A stretch of 64,000 bases of DNA from Promethearchaeota archaeon (GCA_019058365.1 JAHPZE010000001.1:352001-416000); one strand, 5' to 3'; numbered from the stretch's first letter, positions 2,583 through 23,461 are shown. Notes: a model not told the origin generated them from the letters alone. Program-made: numbers and translations.

Positions 2583-4261
2583 TGGAAGTTTTAGAATTAA
2601 AACCTTTAAAAAAACAAAGTTTAAAATTGGTATTAATAGAAAGTGAGTTTCCAATAGATTGGTGGTTTGAACCCACAGCACAGAAAAAGCATGATTTAGT
2701 ATGGAATTTGCACCTAATTTCCAGGGAATATCTTAATCTGATTGAAAATCTTATAGTTAAATATGACCCTGATTTCGCAATCGAAGAAAAAGGAAGTCGG
2801 TGGGAAGATACAATATCTAACGAAGATCCATTAGAAAAGCTATTTAGAGAAAATAACGTCCCATATAAAATGGTAGATATTTCAGAAAACGCAGAAAATT
2901 ATCTTTCCTCGAATTTAGAGGACCAAAGAGCGCTTATAAAACAATTAATAAAATCAATTGAAGATACTAAAAAGAATAATGAGAAAAAAATTTTAAAAGA
3001 TGAATTTGAATTTCAACGGATGATTTTATGGAAGGAATATTTACAGCAAGAATATAATTTTCAAGAAAATGAGATAAGATATAATGTTCGGGAAGCTTGG
3101 ATGATGATGGGAATTCTAAAATTTGCGAAAAAGATGATAGAAAAAAAGCTAATAGCATTCTTTATCTGTGATTCAAGACACTTTGAAGGAATAAGAAAAT
3201 TAACAGAAGAATTAGGCATCGAAACGGAAGAAATTAAAATTAAAAGGTCTGCAAAAATAATAAATAATCCTGGTTCTAATTCAATCAAAAATATAATTGG
3301 AAAAAGTATACTCGAATTATCTCCGATTAAAGTCAAAAAGAAAGAGTCGTTAGAAAAGATATGTTATTTTTTTGATACCGATGATAATGCTTCTCCTTTC
3401 GATATAAATATGGCTTATGACGCAAGTTTTGATGTAGTTATACCTATTAGCAAGATGACTGCTGATCAAGTACCAAAACTCGTACAAGATGCTATTTTTT
3501 CCCGTAAACCAAAAGCACCTACAACTTTCTTTATCGGTGGCTCAAATGTAAAAGAAGGTGAAAAAATTGCTAAAAAAGTTATTGAATCTTTAGTACCCCC
3601 ATTTGAATGCCCCGTGATAATAGATCCTCGTGGTTCACACACCACAGCTTCTTCTGTAGTTGCGAAAACAATGGAATTTGCTAGAGAACATGATTTATAT
3701 GATTTAAAAGGTAAAAAAGTGGTTGTTTTAGGAGCAGGTCCAGTTGGAAGAATTGCAGCTATTATTGCGGCAAAATTAAATTGTAAAACGTATTTAGTAG
3801 AAACTTGGGAAAAATCGAATGAAGAATTTATAAAACGACTAGTTAAAGAATTAAACGAAGAAGTTGGAGAAAATGAAATTATTGGTGTTTTTGCACCTAA
3901 TGATGAAAAGAAATTAGAAATAGTAAAGAGTGCAGATATTATATGGTCCTTAGCAGCAGTGGGAGTTCAAGTATTATCAAAAGAACTCATGAGCAAATTG
4001 ACAAATAAAATTGTATTAGATATAAATTTAGTACCTCCTTATGGAATTGAGGGATTAAAACCTAAAGATAATAATAAAGAACTTTATCCAACTATAAATG
4101 GAACGGGAGCATTAGCCGTTGGAAGGCTTAAGTCAGAAGTTGAGGCCTCAATTTTAAAAGAAGCAGCAATTACTAAGGGGAAAAGAATTTTTGATTATAA
4201 TGAAGCATTTGAAAAGGCTAAAAATATACTATTTGGAAGGGAAATAAAAATTTCTCATTAA
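2582..4261 (+). CDS. Fusion of an unknown ~250-aa N-terminal domain with an NAD(P)-dependent methylene-H4MPT/H4F dehydrogenase (MtdA/MtdB family)
   Basis: C-terminal half carries FDTDDNASPFDINMAYD, DPRGSHTTA, GKKVVVLGAGPVG, DINLVPPYGIEG and GALAVGRLK, all matching MtdA/B motifs. Confidence 0.85.
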   Translation: MEVLELKPLKKQSLKLVLIESEFPIDWWFEPTAQKKHDLVWNLHLISREYLNLIENLIVKYDPDFAIEEKGSRWEDTISNEDPLEKLFRENNVPYKMVDISENAENYLSSNLEDQRALIKQLIKSIEDTKKNNEKKILKDEFEFQRMILWKEYLQQEYNFQENEIRYNVREAWMMMGILKFAKKMIEKKLIAFFICDSRHFEGIRKLTEELGIETEEIKIKRSAKIINNPGSNSIKNIIGKSILELSPIKVKKKESLEKICYFFDTDDNASPFDINMAYDASFDVVIPISKMTADQVPKLVQDAIFSRKPKAPTTFFIGGSNVKEGEKIAKKVIESLVPPFECPVIIDPRGSHTTASSVVAKTMEFAREHDLYDLKGKKVVVLGAGPVGRIAAIIAAKLNCKTYLVETWEKSNEEFIKRLVKELNEEVGENEIIGVFAPNDEKKLEIVKSADIIWSLAAVGVQVLSKELMSKLTNKIVLDINLVPPYGIEGLKPKDNNKELYPTINGTGALAVGRLKSEVEASILKEAAITKGKRIFDYNEAFEKAKNILFGREIKISH

Positions 4262-4272
4262 TTTTTTTTTTA
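4262..4272 (+). terminator. Oligo-T archaeal terminator
   Basis: T run directly after the stop codon. Confidence 0.5.
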
Positions 4273-4331
4273 TCTTAAATCTTAAGATTTTGGCAATTAT
4301 TTTTTATTTCTACTATTATAAAATGCTTAGT

Positions 4332-4495
4332 TGAATAGATTTCACTTCTATTAGAATCCTTCGAATACTCTTCGTTTTATTATATATATGATAGGGTTTC
4401 ATTCGACATATTTATAAATGTTAAATGACATATTTAAAATGAAGAGATATCTTCTATTGAATTTAAAAGAAAAACTCAAAACTGAATTTTATTCG
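4332..4495. promoter_or_regulatory. gdhA upstream region with 13-bp YGAA-N5-TTCR boxes (4332, 4362, half-site 4393, 4483)
   Basis: TGAATAGATTTCA, CGAATACTCTTCG, TGAATTTTATTCG; the first sites are spaced 30-31 bp apart; TATA-like TTTATAAA at ~4411. Confidence 0.55.
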
Positions 4496-4497
4496 AA

Positions 4498-5853
4498 ATG
4501 TTAGAAAATAAAAAAAAAGAACAGATGAAATTCATTTATCCAGAAACTTTAATTTCTCCAGATGAAATTGAAATTTATGGAAAGGAAGAGAAAGAATTAA
4601 TCCCAGAAACAAATCCATTCGAAATGGCAAAGAAACAAATTGATATTGTTGCCAAAGAGATGTGTTTAAATGATAATATAAAAAAATTCCTTAAAAGGGT
4701 AGAGCGTTCCTTAATTGTATCGATTCCAATCAAAATGGATGATGGAGATCTTGAGATATTCGAGGGATATAGGGTACAACATTCAACCCTTCGTGGTCCT
4801 GGTAAAGGAGGTATTAGATTTGCTCCAAATGTTAATCTTGATGAAGTTAAAGCATTAGCTACTTGGATGACTTGGAAATGTAGCCTATTATGTTTACCTC
4901 TGGGGGGAGCAAAAGGAGGTATATGTGTTGATCCCAAGAAATTATCAAAAAACGAGTTAGAAAGATTAACTCGGAGATATACAACAGAAATAATAAATGT
5001 TATAGGTCCAGATATAGATATTCCTGCTCCAGATGTAAATACTGACCCTCAAATCATGGCTTGGATTATGGATACTTATTCTATGCATAAAGGGAGGGCT
5101 ATTCCTGGAGTTGTAACAGGGAAACCAATAGAAATAGGGGGTTCAGTAGGGAGAGAAACTGCTACTGGAATGGGGTTATTTTTTGTACTCGAAGCGTTAT
5201 GTACTAAAATGAATATAGATCTAAAAACCCAGAGTATTGTTGTACAGGGATTTGGTAATGTTGGGGGAAATATTGCTCAAATTTTATATGATAAAGGCTG
5301 CAAAATAATTGCTGTGTCAGATATAAGTGGAGGTTTATACTCAAATAGAGGATTAAATATTAAAGAATTATTAGAGTGGAGAGATGGGAAAAATTACTTA
5401 AAGGATTTTCAGAATAAAGATTATAATTATATCAGTAATGAGGATATGCTAATGTTAAGATGTGATATTCTAATTCCCGCAGCAATGGAAAACCAAATAA
5501 CGAAAGTAAATGCTAATAATTTAAAATGTAAAGTTGTATTAGAAGGTGCTAATGGCCCAACTACTCCAGAAGCAGACGATATTTTGAAAAAAAAAGGAAT
5601 AATAGTAGTGCCTGATATTCTTGCTAATGCTGGAGGTGTATGTGTCTCTTATTTTGAATATATTCAAGATATTCATAGCTATTTTTGGAAATTAGAAAGA
5701 ATTAATCATGAATTAAAGAATATCCTTGTTAATACATTTGAGAATGTTTACATATTATCAAAAGAAAAGAATGTTACCTTACGAATAGCCTCTTATATGA
5801 TTGCTATTGCAAGATTAGCTAAAGCAATTGAACTGAGAGGAATTTTCCCTTAG
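4498..5853 (+). CDS. gdhA: Glu/Leu/Phe/Val dehydrogenase, most likely glutamate dehydrogenase
   Basis: GPGKGGIRF, GGAKGG, DIPAPDVNT, VQGFGNVG, EGANGP, PDILANAGGV. Confidence 0.93.
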   Translation: MLENKKKEQMKFIYPETLISPDEIEIYGKEEKELIPETNPFEMAKKQIDIVAKEMCLNDNIKKFLKRVERSLIVSIPIKMDDGDLEIFEGYRVQHSTLRGPGKGGIRFAPNVNLDEVKALATWMTWKCSLLCLPLGGAKGGICVDPKKLSKNELERLTRRYTTEIINVIGPDIDIPAPDVNTDPQIMAWIMDTYSMHKGRAIPGVVTGKPIEIGGSVGRETATGMGLFFVLEALCTKMNIDLKTQSIVVQGFGNVGGNIAQILYDKGCKIIAVSDISGGLYSNRGLNIKELLEWRDGKNYLKDFQNKDYNYISNEDMLMLRCDILIPAAMENQITKVNANNLKCKVVLEGANGPTTPEADDILKKKGIIVVPDILANAGGVCVSYFEYIQDIHSYFWKLERINHELKNILVNTFENVYILSKEKNVTLRIASYMIAIARLAKAIELRGIFP

Positions 5854-6749
5854 GCTTTATTTTTTTTTTCTATATTAAAATTTATTTTATGAGTCATTTT
5901 AAAAATATCTATAAAACTTGAAACATGCATTGGTAATTGTATTCCATTCATAGTTTTAATTTCTTCATTAACAAATCTCCAAAGATTTTTCTCATTTATA
6001 GCAATAATTTTTACTAATAAATTATGATCCCCGGTTGAAGAGGCAACTAATTGAATCTCCTCATAACTGGCTAACTTTTTTGCGACATCATCCAATTTCA
6101 GTGGATCAACAGAGAGACCAAGAATGGCTATAGATTCATATCCAACTTTAAATGGATCTACAAGTGTATCGAATTTTCTTATTATACCCTCTTTTATCAT
6201 ATTTTGCACTCGATTATGTATAGTACTAGCAGCTAGATCTACTTTTTTACTTAAATCTTTATAAGAGATTCTATAATTTTCCTGTAAAGAATTAAGAATT
6301 TCTTTATCTTTTTCATCGAATTGCATTTTTAGAGCTTTTTCTCTAGTCTTTTCACTTTCAATTCTGTGTCTTTCAATAGCATAGATTATTGATCGTATTA
6401 AACTTGGTCCATTAAGCTCACCTTTCACTAAATAATCTTGAGCTCCTTTTTGAAGAGATTGTAATGCAAAATCCTTATCATCTAACCCTGTTAAAACAAT
6501 TATAGGAATCTTATCAGTTACACTCAAGACTTTTTCTAAAGTGGATTCTCTATCACTATCTGGTAAAGTTAAATCTAATAAAATAATATCAAATTGTTTA
6601 GTTTTTAGATTATTTAAACTGTCAGAAAGCCGAGGATGTGATTCTAAATTAAACTTGAAGTCCGCAGACTTTTTTAATAATTCTTCAATAAGACGTACAT
6701 CAACAGAATTATCTTCAATTAGTAGTATATCAAGTTTCTTATTCTCTAT
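5850..6749 (-). CDS. Response regulator: receiver domain fused to an Lrp/AsnC HTH and RAM domain; probable ATA start
   Basis: The frame stays open upstream of the called TTG (6527), adding ILLIEDN...FDIILLDLTLPD (phospho-acceptor Asp); VLTG and AQDYLVK follow, then the Lrp HTH ISYKDLSKKVDLAASTIHNRV. In-frame TGA at 6758; GGTGA lies 6 nt before ATA 6749. Confidence 0.88.
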   Translation of the reverse strand: MENKKLDILLIEDNSVDVRLIEELLKKSADFKFNLESHPRLSDSLNNLKTKQFDIILLDLTLPDSDRESTLEKVLSVTDKIPIIVLTGLDDKDFALQSLQKGAQDYLVKGELNGPSLIRSIIYAIERHRIESEKTREKALKMQFDEKDKEILNSLQENYRISYKDLSKKVDLAASTIHNRVQNMIKEGIIRKFDTLVDPFKVGYESIAILGLSVDPLKLDDVAKKLASYEEIQLVASSTGDHNLLVKIIAINEKNLWRFVNEEIKTMNGIQLPMHVSSFIDIFKMTHKINFNIEKKNKA

Positions 6750-7114
6750 AATTATTCACCCATTTTTTTTTTTGTAAATTATATTAAAATTAAAATCTTT
6801 TTCAATTCTTTTTTCGTCATTCTGAATAATATTCAATTTAATATAAATAATTATTATATTTATAAACCGAACAGGGTAATATAAGTTATAAAATTTTTAA
6901 GGTTACAATGCAATTTATAATTATTTCTATAAATTTTAAACTGAAATCTCATATTCTGTACTAAAAATTATGCTATTTTTATTCGATAAAATTTATTTTG
7001 TTTTGGACAATATTCTAATTAAATAAGAATTTTTCTTAGGATCTTAAAATTTATGATTTTCTATGAATCTTTTTAAAAAACTCAAATTAGCAAATATATA
7101 ATAAAAGATGGGAG

Positions 7115-8182
7115 ATGATTGTAATGAATTTGAAGTTTAAAGAACAGAAAATGAGATTTTTGATTATTTTAATTTTAGTTATTGTTTCATGTTTATTAAT
7201 TTATTATTTCGAGGTAATTCTTAACACATCTATCTTGGTTGCGCATTTTTTTTACTTTCCTTCAATTTTAGCATGTTTATGGTGGAAAAGAAAAGGATTA
7301 ATCATCCCCACATTTTTAGCGACAATATTAATCATTATTCATCTCATTCTGGATGATAATCTTTTTATTTTAGACACTATTAATAACTTTGTAAGAGGAA
7401 TCTCCTTAATAATTGTGGGAATAGTGGTATCATTCCTATCTGAGCATATTTCTAGAAGAGAAATTGAATTCAATAAAATTACGGAGGATCTAAAGCGATC
7501 TAATGAAGATTTACAACAATTTGCTTATGTAGCATCTCATGACTTACAAGAACCTTTACGAGCAATTGTAAGCTTTTCTCAACTTTTAGAAGATAAATAT
7601 AGAGAAAAAATAGATAAGGATGGTAAAGAATTTATACATTTTATTACGGACGGCGCAAAAAAAATGAATACTCTTATAAAAGACTTATTATCATATTCAA
7701 GAATCACAACCCACGCTAAGCCTTCTAAATTAACTAACCTTGAAAATATTCTAAAAGATGCTTTATTTAATCTGCAAGAATCCATAAAAGAAAGTGATGC
7801 CGTTATAACTTATGATAAAATGCCAACATTGAAAGTGGAGAAAACTCAATTTACACAATTATTTCAGAATTTACTTAGCAATGCTATAAAATTCCGAAGA
7901 CAAGAACCGCCTAGAATACATGTTGGGGTAAAGAAGGTCAATGATGAATGGTTATTCTCTGTAAAAGATAATGGTATAGGAATTGAGTCAAAATTTTTTG
8001 ATAAGCTTTTTAATATTTTTTACCGGTTACATACTAAAGAAGAATATCCCGGTACAGGAATAGGATTACCCATATGCAAGAAGATAGTTCAACGATATGG
8101 AGGAAAAATATGGGTAGAATCAAAAATAGGTAAAGGATCAACCTTCTTTTTTACGATTTTTCCAAAAAAAAATAAACAATAA
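7115..8182 (+). CDS. Membrane-bound sensor histidine kinase (HisKA plus HATPase_c)
   Basis: About 4 N-terminal TM helices; H-box FAYVASHDLQEPL; N-box QNLLSNAIKF; G boxes DNGIGI, GTGIGL, GKGSTF. Confidence 0.95.
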   Translation: MIVMNLKFKEQKMRFLIILILVIVSCLLIYYFEVILNTSILVAHFFYFPSILACLWWKRKGLIIPTFLATILIIIHLILDDNLFILDTINNFVRGISLIIVGIVVSFLSEHISRREIEFNKITEDLKRSNEDLQQFAYVASHDLQEPLRAIVSFSQLLEDKYREKIDKDGKEFIHFITDGAKKMNTLIKDLLSYSRITTHAKPSKLTNLENILKDALFNLQESIKESDAVITYDKMPTLKVEKTQFTQLFQNLLSNAIKFRRQEPPRIHVGVKKVNDEWLFSVKDNGIGIESKFFDKLFNIFYRLHTKEEYPGTGIGLPICKKIVQRYGGKIWVESKIGKGSTFFFTIFPKKNKQ

Positions 8183-8194
8183 TTATAGATAATA

Positions 8195-8641
8195 ATGAAT
8201 GAATATAAAAAAATTAAGGCTAAAATCTTACTCGTAGAAGATAATGCCGCAGATATTCGCCTTACGAAAGAAGTCCTTCAAGAAAGGAAAATGGTTAGTA
8301 GCTTAGATGTTGTTCGGGATGGCGTTGAAGTAATAGATTTTCTAAAGAAAAAAGGGAAATATTCTAATGCTAATACCCCTAATTTAATTCTTTTAGATTT
8401 GAATTTGCCAAAGAGAAATGGATTTGAGGTATTAGAAGAAATCAAGCGAGATGAAGAATTAAAGCGAATTCCCGTGGTAATTTTAACTGTATCTGACGCA
8501 AATGAAGATTTAGTAAAAGCTTATAATCTCCATGCTAATTGTTACGTAATTAAACCTTTAGAAATGAAGGAATTCTCTAGAATTATTAATTCAATAGTGA
8601 TTTTTTGGTTTAGAATTGTAAAGCATATTCAGGTAGAATAA
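8195..8641 (+). CDS. Stand-alone receiver protein (Rcp1-like)
   Basis: LLVEDN, LILLDLNLP, VILT, ANCYVIKP. Confidence 0.93.
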   Translation: MNEYKKIKAKILLVEDNAADIRLTKEVLQERKMVSSLDVVRDGVEVIDFLKKKGKYSNANTPNLILLDLNLPKRNGFEVLEEIKRDEELKRIPVVILTVSDANEDLVKAYNLHANCYVIKPLEMKEFSRIINSIVIFWFRIVKHIQVE

Positions 8642-8692
8642 ATTTAAAGTAAAAATAGAATTATATTTATTTTTACTTATATTAAATATCGT

Positions 8693-9286
8693 TTACACGA
8701 TTTTTACTGCTTGTGTTGACTTATATATATCTAAAAAGTTGGATACATGAATTTGAGGTTTTATTCCACTTAGTGTCTTTATTTTTATATTTATAAAGTT
8801 CCAGAGTGATTTTTCATCTTTAGCAATTATCTGAGCTACAATATCGTGATCTCCTGATGAAATTGCTACAAGTTGAGTCTCATCATAGGATGCAATCTTT
8901 TCAGCAATTTCACTCATTTTAAGTGGGTCAACTGAAAGGCCTACCAATGCTATAGTGTTGTAACCAATTTTCCCTGGATCTACTATAGCACCAAATTGTT
9001 TTATTATTTCATCCTCAATCATCTTTGTTACTCTATTATGAATTGTACTTGCAGCCATTTTCAACTTTTCCGCTAATTCGCGATATGAAATTTTATCATT
9101 TTCTTGTAAAATATTTAGAATCTTTTTATCTGTAGCATCTATACAAAGACAATTCCAAGGACGATTTTCACGATCATCATTAAAAATGACTCCGTGTTCT
9201 ATTGAACCTCCTTCACAACAGTGATATATTTTTCTTCCTAATGAGTATTCTTCTCCACATTTAGGACATATTACCATTATCATCAA
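8693..9286 (-). CDS. Lrp/AsnC regulator with an N-terminal Cys-rich (zinc-ribbon-like) extension
   Basis: CPKC...HCC...CLC, then ISYRELAEKLKMAASTIHNRV; close paralog of the Lrp part of 5850..6749. Confidence 0.9.
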   Translation of the reverse strand: MMIMVICPKCGEEYSLGRKIYHCCEGGSIEHGVIFNDDRENRPWNCLCIDATDKKILNILQENDKISYRELAEKLKMAASTIHNRVTKMIEDEIIKQFGAIVDPGKIGYNTIALVGLSVDPLKMSEIAEKIASYDETQLVAISSGDHDIVAQIIAKDEKSLWNFINIKIKTLSGIKPQIHVSNFLDIYKSTQAVKIV

Positions 9287-9451
9287 CTCATTTATATTGT
9301 TTGATTGTTAGAATATTATTTTTTATATAATCTGAATAAAATTCATTATAATTATTTTGTTTATTTTTTATTATTCTAGTTTTTCTAATATAATATATAT
9401 AGAATAATATATTTAAACATATCGAAAATGGTTCGATTATTGTCACATTGA

Positions 9452-23041: not shown

Positions 23042-23461
23042 TTAAATATATTCTCTAACAAAGAAATAGACATTTTTAGAATTGCATTCTACGCAATTAA
23101 CTTTTCCATCCTTTGATGCAGTGGGATCTTCCCATTCATGATTACAATCTAAACATCCATATCCTTTAAAGCTTAATTTATAATCAAAATTCCCACCATA
23201 GACTTTAATTTCTTTCCCCTCAAGCAAGGCTAAAGTATTTTTCTGATGGGCACTTTCAAGAATTCTTGAAAAAGTAGGTTGACTTATTCCCATTCTTTCA
23301 GCAGCTGCTTTCTGATTCAAGCCTAAATAATGTTTTAATCTCATAGCTTCAAATTCAGCAACAGTTATTATAATTGAATCTTTTATTTTATTAGAAACCC
23401 CAGTGAAATAGGAATTATTAGGTGGCTGATTAACCCATCGTCGATGTCTGTTTCTTCCTAT
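23042..23461 (-). CDS. DUF134-family HTH DNA-binding protein with a C-terminal zinc ribbon; probable ATA start
   Basis: The upstream extension (M)GRNRHRRWVNQPP...EFEAMRL is the typical DUF134 N-terminus; in-frame TGA at 23470; GGTGA lies 6 nt before ATA; CLDC...CVEC. Confidence 0.88.
   Translation of the reverse strand: MGRNRHRRWVNQPPNNSYFTGVSNKIKDSIIITVAEFEAMRLKHYLGLNQKAAAERMGISQPTFSRILESAHQKNTLALLEGKEIKVYGGNFDYKLSFKGYGCLDCNHEWEDPTASKDGKVNCVECNSKNVYFFVREYI

What the first reader, a model, noticed from the sequence alone, without database searches (positions are those of the whole stretch)
4332..9435. Candidate phosphorylation-controlled Lrp regulon: kinase, receiver, REC-Lrp fusion, Cys-rich Lrp and gdhA
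Seen: a membrane histidine kinase and receiver are flanked by two close Lrp/AsnC paralogs with different N-terminal modules (a complete REC domain with Asp/Thr/Lys, and a Cys-rich finger). gdhA converges on the REC-Lrp gene with a 4-bp overlap. Known: archaeal response regulators seldom carry DNA-binding outputs, and Lrp proteins are normally ligand-controlled oligomers. Inference: a hetero-oligomeric Lrp integrates phosphorelay, metal/redox and amino-acid signals to control glutamate metabolism. The fusion is easy to miss because its ATA start hides half of the REC domain.
Basis: partly seen in the sequence, partly recalled or inferred. Interest (0 to 1): 0.78.

Follow-up and report, generated by a model that had tools for sequence, protein, structure and literature searches.

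The report
Kinase-wired Lrp regulator beside glutamate dehydrogenase
One family of Loki-type Asgard archaea carries a conserved signalling cassette in which a membrane kinase probably phosphorylates an unusual receiver-Lrp fusion protein. That protein has matching DNA sites in its own promoter, in the promoter of a zinc-finger Lrp relative and in front of the neighbouring glutamate dehydrogenase gene, so it is a testable candidate for a two-component pathway to DNA in these archaea.

Summary
The window encodes gdhA, a REC-HTH_AsnC-RAM fusion (REC-Lrp), a 4-TM histidine kinase, a stand-alone REC and an Lrp paralog with a Cys/His finger.

REC-Lrp has no ATG, GTG or TTG before codon 77. Its start is ATA, 6 nt after a GGTGA Shine-Dalgarno. 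In the 29 closest genomes the aligned codon is ATA 22, ATC 4 and ATG 3. The codons ahead of the first canonical start are under purifying selection.

The cassette is conserved in 51 genomes, all from one Lokiarchaeial family:
- The kinase and REC are linked in 36 of 37 loci.
- gdhA is adjacent in 34 of 45.
- The finger is present in 27 of 33, fused or free.

A 13-bp palindrome, YGAATNNNATTCR, sits next to the TATA-like sequence of REC-Lrp; it is unchanged in 37 of 39 loci. It also sits in the finger-Lrp promoter and, in a 30-bp-phased array, in front of gdhA.

Best reading: a phosphorylation-controlled, autoregulated local Lrp regulator of one GDH paralog. Hetero-oligomers and metal or redox sensing remain untested.

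The ATA start is not special to this gene. Near-cognate starts after a strong SD recur across this genome.

Another first-reader note in this scan covers the same stretch; no follow-up on it was shown.

Novelty: a new variant of known kinds. Interest is moderate to high.

The parts
4332..4344 (.). gdhA upstream box A (TGAATAGATTTCA), centre 4338
   Evidence: Matches YGAANNNNNTTCR. The same position (-168 from the ATG) carries a box in most orthologous loci.
4362..4374 (.). gdhA upstream box B (CGAATACTCTTCG), centre 4368, 30 bp from box A
   Evidence: The CGAA...TTCG columns are conserved in the alignment of 26 loci. The -138 position recurs.
4393..4405 (.). gdhA box C, degenerate (right half ATTCG intact), centre 4399, just upstream of the TATA-like element
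   Evidence: Conserved block ...TTCATTCGACA.... It matches the loose pattern at -108 in several loci. The TTCGA, 3-4 nt, TATA layout is also seen at the finger-Lrp and kinase promoters.
4411..4418 (+). TATA-like element TTTATAAA of gdhA (inferred)
   Evidence: Invariant ATTTATAA block in 26 loci. No transcript data are available.
4483..4495 (.). gdhA box D (TGAATTTTATTCG), strict box ending 2 nt before the ATG, centre 4489, 90 bp from box C
   Evidence: Strict pattern hit. Present at -17/-18 in 23 of 27 loci, 22 orthologues plus the window.
4498..5853 (+). Glutamate dehydrogenase paralog (451 aa), one of three in the genome
   Evidence: Pfam and NCBIfam. Paralogs at 73% and 43% identity elsewhere in the genome.
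5850..6749 (-). REC-Lrp response regulator (299 aa from the ATA start at 6749-6747): REC, long alpha-5 linker helix, HTH_AsnC, RAM
   Evidence: Pfam. AF2 model with pLDDT 80. Homologues. dN/dS of the N-terminal 73 codons is 0.13-0.17 against the two nearest relatives and 0.08-0.46 overall, typically 0.15-0.35.
6756..6760 (-). Shine-Dalgarno GGTGA, 6 nt before the ATA start; its TGA closes the frame upstream
   Evidence: GGTG(A) is conserved in nearly all loci with a 5-6 nt spacer.
6823..6835 (.). Auto-operator: perfect 13-bp palindrome TGAATATTATTCA, directly downstream of the TATA-like element of REC-Lrp
   Evidence: Strict hit. Present as YGAATATTATTCA in 37 of 39 loci, while the flanking DNA diverges.
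6840..6850 (-). TATA-like element of the REC-Lrp promoter (inferred)
   Evidence: Conserved block ...AATTATTTATATTAAA....
6970..7018 (.). Conserved ~50-bp block on the kinase side of the divergent region: half box (ATTCGA), TATA-like run, degenerate box (7005-7017)
   Evidence: At least 90% column conservation across 25 loci. Function inferred.
7115..8182 (+). Membrane histidine kinase (355 aa): 4 TM helices, no periplasmic or PAS domain, HisKA, HATPase_c
   Evidence: Pfam. The N-terminus gives only a weak, sub-threshold DUF4118 match (E 0.025). H, N, G1, F and G2 boxes are visible in the sequence.
8195..8641 (+). Stand-alone receiver (148 aa), 12 nt after the kinase stop, so probably one operon
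   Evidence: Pfam, 74 bits. The Asp, Thr and Lys-Pro motifs are present.
8693..9286 (-). Zinc-finger-Lrp paralog (197 aa); finger is residues 1-48 (9143-9286), then HTH_AsnC and RAM
   Evidence: Pfam. Invariant C7, C10, H22, C24, H31, C46 in 33 sequences. The recognition helix AASTIHNRV is identical to that of REC-Lrp.
9333..9345 (.). Finger-Lrp promoter box 2 (TGAATTTTATTCA on the gene's strand), in the likely 5' leader
   Evidence: Strict hit. The TGAAyTTTATTCA consensus is conserved in 25 loci, with single substitutions in four of them.
9423..9435 (.). Finger-Lrp promoter box 1 (CGAACCATTTTCG), directly upstream of the TATA-like TTTAAATA (9410-9417); 90 bp from box 2
   Evidence: The CGAA..TTCGATA..TTTAAATA block is conserved in 25 loci.

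Best explanation
This is a lineage-specific two-component cassette of one Lokiarchaeial (Promethearchaeia) family.

Proposed signal path (inferred): a four-helix membrane kinase with no extracellular domain autophosphorylates. It then passes phosphate to its operon partner, a stand-alone receiver, and/or to the divergently encoded REC-Lrp.

Proposed output: REC-Lrp is a full-length response regulator whose output is an Lrp/AsnC module (HTH plus RAM). As an Lrp dimer or octamer it binds 13-bp palindromes, YGAAT-N3-ATTCR. It would act at four places:
- Its own promoter, with the box between the TATA-like element and the expected transcription start. This is the position from which an Lrp-type repressor blocks RNA polymerase recruitment.
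- The promoter of the zinc-finger-Lrp paralog.
- Probably the kinase-receiver promoter.
- The adjacent glutamate dehydrogenase paralog, through four boxes spaced 30, 31 and 90 bp apart that bracket the TATA-like element. Such a layout would let an octamer wrap the DNA.

Phosphorylation, relayed through the long alpha-5 linker helix, most likely shifts the oligomeric state or DNA affinity of the Lrp module. The RAM domain may add an amino-acid input. The sign of regulation at gdhA is unknown.

The gene is translated from an ATA codon placed 6 nt after a strong GGTGA Shine-Dalgarno.

Shown: gene content, domain integrity, conservation, linkage, the boxes and their placement, and selection on the N-terminus. 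Inferred: phosphotransfer, box binding by REC-Lrp, the effect on transcription, and initiation at ATA.
For: - Domains and catalytic residues are intact.
- The family comprises more than 100 full-length homologues. It was found in 57 of 134 genomes of the window's own family and in 0 of 266 genomes of 32 other Asgard families.
- Linkage over 51 loci at 56-96% identity: kinase in 36 of 37, receiver in 36 of 37, gdhA convergent and adjacent in 34 of 45, finger in 27 of 33.
- In five loci the kinase and/or receiver lie co-directionally just upstream of REC-Lrp; the full kinase, receiver, REC-Lrp order is seen in four.
- The strict box occurs 4 times in 64 kb against 0.88 expected. All 3 non-coding hits are in this cassette.
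- Genome-wide there are 48 strict hits, about the chance number. Only 9 lie outside long ORFs, and 3 of those 9 are here.
- The auto-operator is unchanged in 37 of 39 loci.
- gdhA boxes recur at -168, -138, -108 and -17. The finger-Lrp boxes are conserved and 90 bp apart.
- Boxes persist in lineages where the finger is a free small protein and REC-Lrp is the only Lrp in the cassette.
- Closest solved relatives by sequence include FL11 and LrpA. FL11 binds a 13-bp palindrome, LrpA blocks polymerase recruitment, and Lrp proteins use regularly spaced sites and octamers (PMC2995911).
- The REC plus linker helix aligns with NtrC1-type receivers.
- Start codon: a conserved GGTGA is followed by ATA in 22, ATC in 4 and ATG in 3 of the 29 closest loci, while distant loci use mostly ATG, TTG or GTG. 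There is no conserved upstream ATG. dN/dS of codons 4-76 is 0.13-0.17 against the two nearest relatives. Independent assemblies show no indel there.
Against: - There is no expression, transcription-start or binding data.
- Convergent genes cannot share a promoter, so control of gdhA rests only on the boxes and the linkage.
- gdhA is missing next to REC-Lrp in about a quarter of loci.
- The two Lrp paralogs have identical recognition helices, so the boxes cannot be assigned to one of them in this genome.
- The stand-alone receiver, not REC-Lrp, is the kinase's operon partner.
- Only 43% of genomes in the family carry the gene.
- The TATA assignments are by eye.
- Boxes A to C are looser than the strict consensus.
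Confidence: 0.6

Rival explanations
1. The kinase signals only to its operon partner, the stand-alone receiver. REC-Lrp is then either phosphorylated by another kinase or is modulated by receiver-receiver contact, acting as a phosphate sink or competitor. It may still bind the boxes.
For: The kinase and the stand-alone REC are 12 nt apart in one operon. Stand-alone receivers dominate archaeal signalling (PMC5847659). The REC of REC-Lrp is 46-49% identical to receivers of three large proteins on contig C36, against 29% to the neighbouring stand-alone REC.
Against: REC-Lrp is linked to this kinase in 36 of 37 loci. In four loci it follows the kinase and receiver co-directionally. Branched one-kinase, two-receiver systems are common (general knowledge).
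Confidence: 0.2
2. REC-Lrp and the finger-Lrp form hetero-octamers that integrate phosphorylation, a metal or redox signal read by the Cys finger, and an amino acid.
For: The recognition helices are identical and the paralogs are adjacent. Lrp hetero-assemblies are known in vitro, for example FL11 with DM1 (PMC2995911). The finger family recurs beside Lrp genes: as a free gene next to another Lrp on C24 of this genome, next to a solo Lrp in L081, and fused here. This is a Rosetta-stone type hint.
Against: In 10 of the 33 loci with enough upstream sequence, all among the more distant relatives, the finger is a free protein and no second Lrp sits at that position in the cassette, yet the boxes persist. 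The ligand pattern C-x2-C, H-x-C looks structural. The paralog on C24 has lost both His. The Lrp modules belong to separate clades. There is no test of binding.
Confidence: 0.25
3. The boxes belong to another Lrp-type protein (the finger-Lrp or a solo Lrp). REC-Lrp has different, unseen targets, and gdhA adjacency is inherited gene order without regulation.
For: The recognition helix LAASTIHNR is shared by solo Loki Lrps; it was the search pattern, and one search places them in the tree. The genome has at least eight further Lrp-like genes.
Against: The perfect palindrome sits in REC-Lrp's own promoter in 37 of 39 loci. Autoregulation is the rule for Lrp proteins (PMC2995911). The same box type recurs only in this cassette in the whole genome.
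Confidence: 0.1
4. The REC half is decaying. The functional product starts at the internal TTG (codon 77) and is an ordinary Lrp with a leftover leader.
For: There is no canonical start before codon 77. Gene callers chose the internal start in near relatives.
Against: dN/dS of codons 4-76 is as low as in the rest of the gene. The Asp, Thr and Lys residues are invariant. The SD and its spacing are conserved, and ATG stands at the same codon in other species. Near-cognate starts occur in clearly essential genes of this genome, such as uL16.
Confidence: 0.04

Closest known systems
FL11 (PH1519) and LrpA of Pyrococcus; the archaeal Lrp/AsnC (feast/famine) regulators in general
   Same: HTH_AsnC plus RAM module, E 1e-16 to 1e-27 against solved structures. 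A 13-bp palindromic operator with an AT-rich centre, an operator placed at its own promoter next to the TATA-like element, and regularly spaced sites suited to octamers (PMC2995911).
   Different: The known proteins are about 15 kDa and are controlled by amino-acid ligands. Here a complete receiver domain, or in the paralog a zinc finger, is fused N-terminally, so the input would be phosphorylation. The review of archaeal Lrps mentions no fusion (the term gave no match).
Bacterial DNA-binding response regulators (OmpR, NarL, NtrC classes), especially NtrC1/DctD-type receivers with a helical linker
   Same: A REC with a canonical active site, followed by a long alpha-5/linker helix that could couple phosphorylation to the assembly state of the output. 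The best solved REC matches are NtrC1 structures and include the linker.
   Different: The output domain is Lrp/AsnC, which is not among the response-regulator classes named in the archaeal census read here (PMC5847659). There is no AAA+, wHTH-OmpR or GerE domain.
Archaeal response regulators with HTH outputs: LtrR, FilR1, Bat-type, REC-HTH_10 (Galperin et al. 2018, PMC5847659)
   Same: Rare cases in which an archaeal two-component system ends in a DNA-binding protein.
   Different: Different HTH families and lineages (methanogens, haloarchaea). The census text and its supplements name no REC-Lrp/AsnC architecture, in Asgard or elsewhere.
REC + HTH_AsnC + AsnC_trans_reg proteins of Chloroflexota (two ESM Atlas clusters, 55 and 99 members)
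   Same: Same three-domain order and similar length, 274-278 aa.
   Different: Bacterial and only distantly similar (feature score 0.89). They did not appear among the best 150 representatives in a full HMM search. Whether the origin is common or independent was not resolved. No description was found in the papers searched.
Sa-Lrp of Sulfolobus acidocaldarius (glutamine-responsive)
   Same: An Lrp regulator whose cofactor is glutamine and which assembles into octamers on binding it (PMC3584215 abstract).
   Different: Ligand-controlled only, and a versatile architectural regulator rather than a local one. There is no link to a kinase.

Membership tests
Response regulator receiver (REC, PF00072) | Profile match above the curated threshold | tested here: met
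   56.7 bits against a cut-off of 30.2 for REC-Lrp; 74.3 bits for the stand-alone REC.
Response regulator receiver (REC, PF00072) | Acidic pair, phospho-acceptor Asp, Thr/Ser and Lys at the canonical positions | tested here: met
   E12, D13, D59, T87 and K109 (numbered from the ATA start) are invariant in 64 sequences. An alternating beta-alpha fold with five strands and five helices (residues 5-138) is predicted.
Response regulator receiver (REC, PF00072) | Phosphorylation by a cognate histidine kinase | not testable with these tools
   Only conserved linkage to the kinase is available: 36 of 37 loci.
Lrp/AsnC (feast/famine) transcription regulators | N-terminal HTH_AsnC and C-terminal RAM (AsnC_trans_reg) above threshold | tested here: met
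   REC-Lrp scores 46 bits (cut-off 27) and 35.7 bits (cut-off 25). The finger-Lrp scores 52.6 and 32 bits. A beta-alpha-beta-beta-alpha-beta RAM fold is predicted.
Lrp/AsnC (feast/famine) transcription regulators | Binding to palindromic, AT-centred operators, often at its own promoter | tested here: inconclusive
   Conserved candidate operators were found. Binding itself was not tested.
Lrp/AsnC (feast/famine) transcription regulators | Dimer-to-octamer assembly; small-molecule ligand in the RAM domain | not tested
   No oligomer model or ligand analysis was made.
Named NCBIfam equivalogs (LrpA, LrpA1, LysM, ChrS, AsnC) | Score above the equivalog cut-off | tested here: not met
   The best match is ChrS at 89.9 bits against a cut-off of 250. 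LrpA scores 72 bits against 250. It is therefore not a member of any named subfamily.
Class I histidine kinase (HisKA + HATPase_c) | Both catalytic domains above threshold, with the H box present | tested here: met
   46 and 92.6 bits. The SHDLQEPL H box is present.
Archaeal glutamate dehydrogenase (NF040817 GdhA_Arch) | Equivalog score cut-off | tested here: not met
   523.7 bits against a cut-off of 750. Both Pfam ELFV domains are clearly met. It is a member of the Glu/Leu/Phe/Val dehydrogenase family; glutamate is the likely substrate but is not proven.
Known zinc-finger or zinc-ribbon Pfam families (for the Cys-rich module) | Any profile match | tested here: not met
   No family reached E below 0.06. 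The Atlas gave no informative neighbour. The AF2 model has low confidence, pLDDT about 62.

The most novel reading that the evidence does not exclude
REC-Lrp is a phospho-switchable Lrp. Phosphorylation of the receiver, passed on through the alpha-5 linker helix, replaces or gates the usual amino-acid control of dimer-to-octamer assembly. That decides whether the protein wraps the 30-bp-phased operator array of a catabolic glutamate dehydrogenase. The small zinc-ribbon protein, free or fused to a second Lrp, would be a dedicated co-factor of this nucleoprotein complex. This would be the first defined path from a membrane sensor to a promoter in Asgard archaea, and a new output class of response regulators.
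Probability: 0.3. Interest if true: 0.75.

Novelty: new variant of a known kind. Interest (0 to 1): 0.62.

Why it matters
Signal transduction and gene regulation in Asgard archaea are almost unexplored. Archaeal two-component systems are thought to act mostly through protein contacts rather than through DNA-binding outputs.

This cassette offers a complete circuit that can be tested experimentally: a sensor kinase, two receivers, a DNA-binding output, defined 13-bp operators and a metabolic target gene. From memory, GDH is taken to be central to the amino-acid fermentation proposed for cultured Loki-type archaea. The circuit is small enough for in vitro reconstitution.

The work also shows that automated gene calling removes the receiver half of the protein in the closest relatives, because the gene starts with ATA. 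Such near-cognate starts recur across this genome, so other N-terminal domains may be missed in these assemblies.

Tried and rejected
Neighbourhoods were taken instead from the genome search, the fetch from genomes and the search for related loci.
- Frameshift from the upstream ATG at 6763-6761: rejected. That ATG is not conserved in relatives, and independent assemblies show no indel.
- Complex prediction of the finger (residues 1-50) with REC-Lrp: no verdict, score 0.00. It counts neither for nor against binding.
- AF2 of the finger-Lrp: pLDDT 61, too low for a fold search. No fold search was run.
- Pfam at lax E-values and the ESM Atlas gave no family for the finger.
- Wider regulon: the strict box is not enriched genome-wide (48 found, about 40 expected). 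None of the six other hits outside long ORFs lies in a promoter-like position. The fourth box in the window, at 15810, lies inside a 717-aa ORF. The loose box at 2527 probably lies inside the ORF upstream of the Mtd gene.
- No RNA holder was listed among public runs, so there is no expression or transcription-start evidence.
- Rfam found no match in 4000-10000. The sigma-70 and terminator scan showed no enrichment and does not apply to archaeal promoters.
- Search for other REC-Lrp families among 1.84 billion representatives: the two candidates with an Lrp module at the C-terminal end (P0225, P0260) are tandem double-Lrp proteins, and P0175 is a REC-HisKA-REC protein without an Lrp module.
- The idea that the finger-Lrp is a recent duplicate of the Lrp half of REC-Lrp: rejected by the tree.
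- Literature searches for a described REC-Lrp/AsnC regulator or for AUA starts in archaea found nothing relevant.

Full report
**What is there**

The stretch 4332-9435 and its flanks hold five genes:
- gdhA (4498-5853, +).
- A 301-codon open frame on the minus strand (5850-6755) with Response_reg, HTH_AsnC and AsnC_trans_reg domains, here called REC-Lrp.
- A histidine kinase (7115-8182, +) with four predicted membrane helices, no sensor domain outside the membrane, HisKA and HATPase_c.
- A stand-alone receiver, 12 nt after the kinase stop (8195-8641, +).
- A second Lrp/AsnC protein (8693-9286, -) whose first 48 residues are Cys/His-rich and match no Pfam family.

gdhA and REC-Lrp converge, and their stop codons overlap by 4 bp. 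The two Lrp modules are 55% identical and are each other's best match in the genome.

**The start of REC-Lrp**

The frame has no ATG, GTG or TTG before codon 77, which lies beyond the phospho-acceptor Asp.

Homologues begin with Met at the position of the third codon of the open frame. In the window this codon is ATA (6749-6747). It stands 6 nt after GGTGA, the archaeal Shine-Dalgarno core, and the TGA of that motif closes the frame upstream.

The aligned start codon was compared in 51 genomes:
- In the 29 closest (at least 73% identity): ATA in 22, ATC in 4, ATG in 3.
- In more distant ones: mostly ATG, also TTG and GTG, single cases of GTA and TTA, and again ATA or ATC in five.
- The spacer varies by one base between species. 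This fits an SD element, not coding sequence.

The out-of-frame ATG at 6763 is not conserved, so a frameshift is not the explanation. Independent assemblies from three further runs (two studies in all) show substitutions but no indels here.

Codons 4-76 have dN/dS of 0.13-0.17 against the two nearest relatives, the same range as the rest of the gene. The N-terminal half of the receiver is therefore translated.

**The ATA start is not special to this gene**

The whole genome was scanned for GGTGA followed by a long frame that has no canonical start nearby. At the 6-nt spacer it gave ATG 13, GTG 3 and TTG 6, but also ATA 6, CTG 3, ATT 2, ATC 1 and GTA 1. All other codons together gave only 4.

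The cases include genes whose conserved N-termini lie ahead of the first canonical start: a small GTPase with its P-loop, a Usp protein, a Ski2-like helicase and ribosomal protein uL16. The uL16 gene starts with ATC or ATA in three of five genomes of this genus, always behind a perfect GGTGA. In the other 24 readable genomes of the family it starts with ATG (22), TTG (1) or GTG (1).

Near-cognate initiation behind a strong SD therefore looks like a trait of this lineage. For REC-Lrp it may lower the yield, but it is not by itself evidence of special translational control.

**Distribution and linkage**

More than 100 full-length homologues exist. All are from Asgard (Promethearchaeota) metagenome bins and carry only automatic names.

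In a sample of 400 Asgard genomes, the protein was found in 57 of 134 genomes of the window's own GTDB family (five genera). It was found in none of 266 genomes of 32 other families.

Counts over 51 loci with 56-96% identity:
- Kinase next to REC-Lrp in 36 of 37 loci with enough flank. It is divergent in 34 and co-directional in 2 of these. In five loci overall the kinase and/or receiver lie co-directionally upstream; the full kinase, receiver, REC-Lrp order is seen in four.
- Stand-alone receiver in 36 of 37.
- gdhA convergent and adjacent in 34 of 45, and within 6 kb in 37 of 45.
- Cys finger in 27 of 33.

In the window's genus the finger is fused to an Lrp (17 loci). In more distant relatives it is a free protein of 58-84 aa at the same place (10 loci).

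Six residues are invariant in 33 finger sequences: C7, C10, H22, C24, H31 and C46. The motif is CPxCG.EYSLGR.I.H.C. The pattern and four short predicted strands suggest a zinc ribbon, but the model has low confidence.

A finger paralog lies beside another Lrp gene on contig C24 of this genome. In L081 a solo Lrp precedes the free finger. The association between finger and Lrp therefore recurs as neighbours and as a fusion.

A tree of the Lrp modules puts the REC-Lrp and finger-Lrp modules in separate, well supported clades, with solo Loki Lrps between them. They are related but are not recent duplicates.

**Operators**

Alignment of the divergent kinase/REC-Lrp region from 25 species shows two strongly conserved blocks in otherwise diverged DNA.

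The block on the REC-Lrp side holds a TATA-like run. It is directly followed by the perfect palindrome TGAATATTATTCA (6823-6835). This 13-mer, with Y at the first base, is present in 37 of 39 loci.

The pattern YGAATNNNATTCR occurs four times in the 64-kb window (0.88 expected):
- At the REC-Lrp promoter.
- 2 nt before the gdhA start codon (4483-4495).
- In the finger-Lrp leader (9333-9345).
- Once inside a long ORF.

In the whole genome there are 48 hits, about the chance number. Only nine lie outside long ORFs, and three of those are the ones in this cassette. The others are not in promoter positions.

The gdhA upstream region has further boxes of the looser form YGAA-N5-TTCR at 4332 and 4362, and a degenerate one at 4393 abutting a conserved TTTATAAA. 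The box centres are 4338, 4368, 4399 and 4489, which gives spacings of 30, 31 and 90 bp. The same positions recur in orthologous loci.

The finger-Lrp promoter has a box directly upstream of a conserved TTTAAATA and a second box 90 bp on. The kinase-side block repeats the layout of half box, TATA-like run and degenerate box.

No Rfam family matches these regions.

The recognition helices of the two Lrp proteins are identical (AASTIHNRV). Both should read the same box. However, the boxes persist in lineages where REC-Lrp is the only Lrp in the cassette.

**How it most likely works**

The closest solved relatives of the Lrp module are Pyrococcus and Thermococcales-type Lrps, including FL11 and LrpA. 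Three facts are known for these proteins (PMC2995911):
- FL11 binds a 13-bp palindrome.
- LrpA represses its own gene by blocking polymerase recruitment from a site next to the TATA box.
- Lrp proteins use regularly spaced sites and dimer-octamer equilibria, and hetero-assemblies exist.

The receiver has all catalytic residues. In the AF2 model (pLDDT 80) its alpha-5 continues as a long helix (114-138) into the HTH. The best solved matches for this part are NtrC1-type receivers and include the linker.

I therefore read the cassette as a branched two-component system. The kinase phosphorylates the stand-alone receiver and/or REC-Lrp. Phosphorylation changes the assembly or DNA affinity of the Lrp module.

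REC-Lrp would then repress its own promoter. It would control the finger-Lrp, probably the kinase operon, and one of three GDH paralogs of the genome. The direction of control at gdhA cannot be told.

Steps shown: architecture, conservation, linkage, the boxes and their placement. Steps inferred: phosphotransfer, which protein binds the boxes, and the effect on transcription.

**Comparison with what is known**

The census of archaeal two-component systems (PMC5847659) stresses that DNA-binding response regulators are rare in archaea. It lists Bat-type, LtrR-like, REC-HTH_10 and a few bacterial-type proteins. Neither its text nor its supplements name a REC-Lrp/AsnC fusion. The review of archaeal Lrps mentions no fusion either (the term gave no match).

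The architecture is not unique to Asgard. The ESM Atlas holds two Chloroflexota clusters with REC, HTH and AsnC_trans_reg (a lead only). They are too distant to appear among the best 150 representatives of a full profile search.

The finding is thus a new variant of known kinds: a response regulator with an Lrp output, or equally an Lrp with a phospho-input. It is recorded in databases under automatic names, and the searches made here found no description of it in the literature.

**Verdict**

Hetero-oligomers and metal or redox sensing remain open.

Interest is moderate to high, because the cassette gives Asgard biology a compact signalling circuit that can be tested in vitro. The lineage-wide use of near-cognate start codons, noticed on the way, may deserve its own study.

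Noticed in passing
Genome-wide in G000. Example in the window: 23045-23461 (-), a DUF134-like gene. Others: G000:C16:472855-473484 (-) uL16, C10:16710-17285 (+) small GTPase, C54:7881-10403 (-) helicase, C47:68185-68658 (+) Usp: Near-cognate start codons (ATA, CTG, ATT, ATC, GTA) stand 6 nt behind a perfect GGTGA in genes whose conserved N-termini precede any ATG, GTG or TTG. At that spacer there are 13 near-cognate cases, 22 canonical ones and 4 with any other codon. uL16 starts with ATC or ATA in 3 of 5 genomes of this genus and with ATG, TTG or GTG in the other 24 readable genomes of the family. Automated gene calls in these bins will truncate such genes.
   Followed up: partly
G000:C24, locus L010: 1486-1980 (+) Lrp-like gene and 2642-2935 (+) finger paralog: A paralog of the Cys finger (52% identity, both conserved His lost) lies 660 bp downstream of another Lrp/AsnC gene. 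A 43%-identical GDH paralog lies about 9 kb further on. The finger-Lrp association recurs outside the cassette.
   Followed up: partly
window 4498-4596 (N-terminus of gdhA); paralogs at G000:C16:2040-3296 and C24:121273-122586: The genome has three GDH paralogs (100%, 73% and 43% identity). The copy linked to the cassette aligns with the 73% paralog only from residue 33, which may reflect an N-terminal extension of about 32 residues.
   Followed up: no
G000:C36:47-56 kb (loci L003-L005): The receiver of REC-Lrp is 46-49% identical to receivers at the ends of three large proteins (open frames 383-742 aa) clustered on contig C36. It is only 29% identical to the neighbouring stand-alone REC. These may be alternative phospho-donors or relatives of the fused receiver.
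   Followed up: no
P0225 (330 aa) and P0260 (356 aa), metagenome proteins: Tandem double-Lrp proteins with two HTH_AsnC and two RAM domains in one chain turned up among relatives. They could be covalent Lrp dimers.
   Followed up: no
window 9452-9664 (-): A 70-aa Lys/Arg/Glu-rich ORF lies upstream of the finger-Lrp promoter. It found no counterpart in any of the syntenic loci. It may not be a gene.
   Followed up: no
L054 (JAHQWL010000022, 94% relative) and L057, L065, L070, L076, L077: Cassette decay in some species. In L054 gdhA is reduced to its last ~125 codons and the finger-Lrp is missing. Five other loci lack gdhA next to REC-Lrp; in three of them (L057, L065, L070) the Mtd-type gene follows downstream instead.
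   Followed up: no
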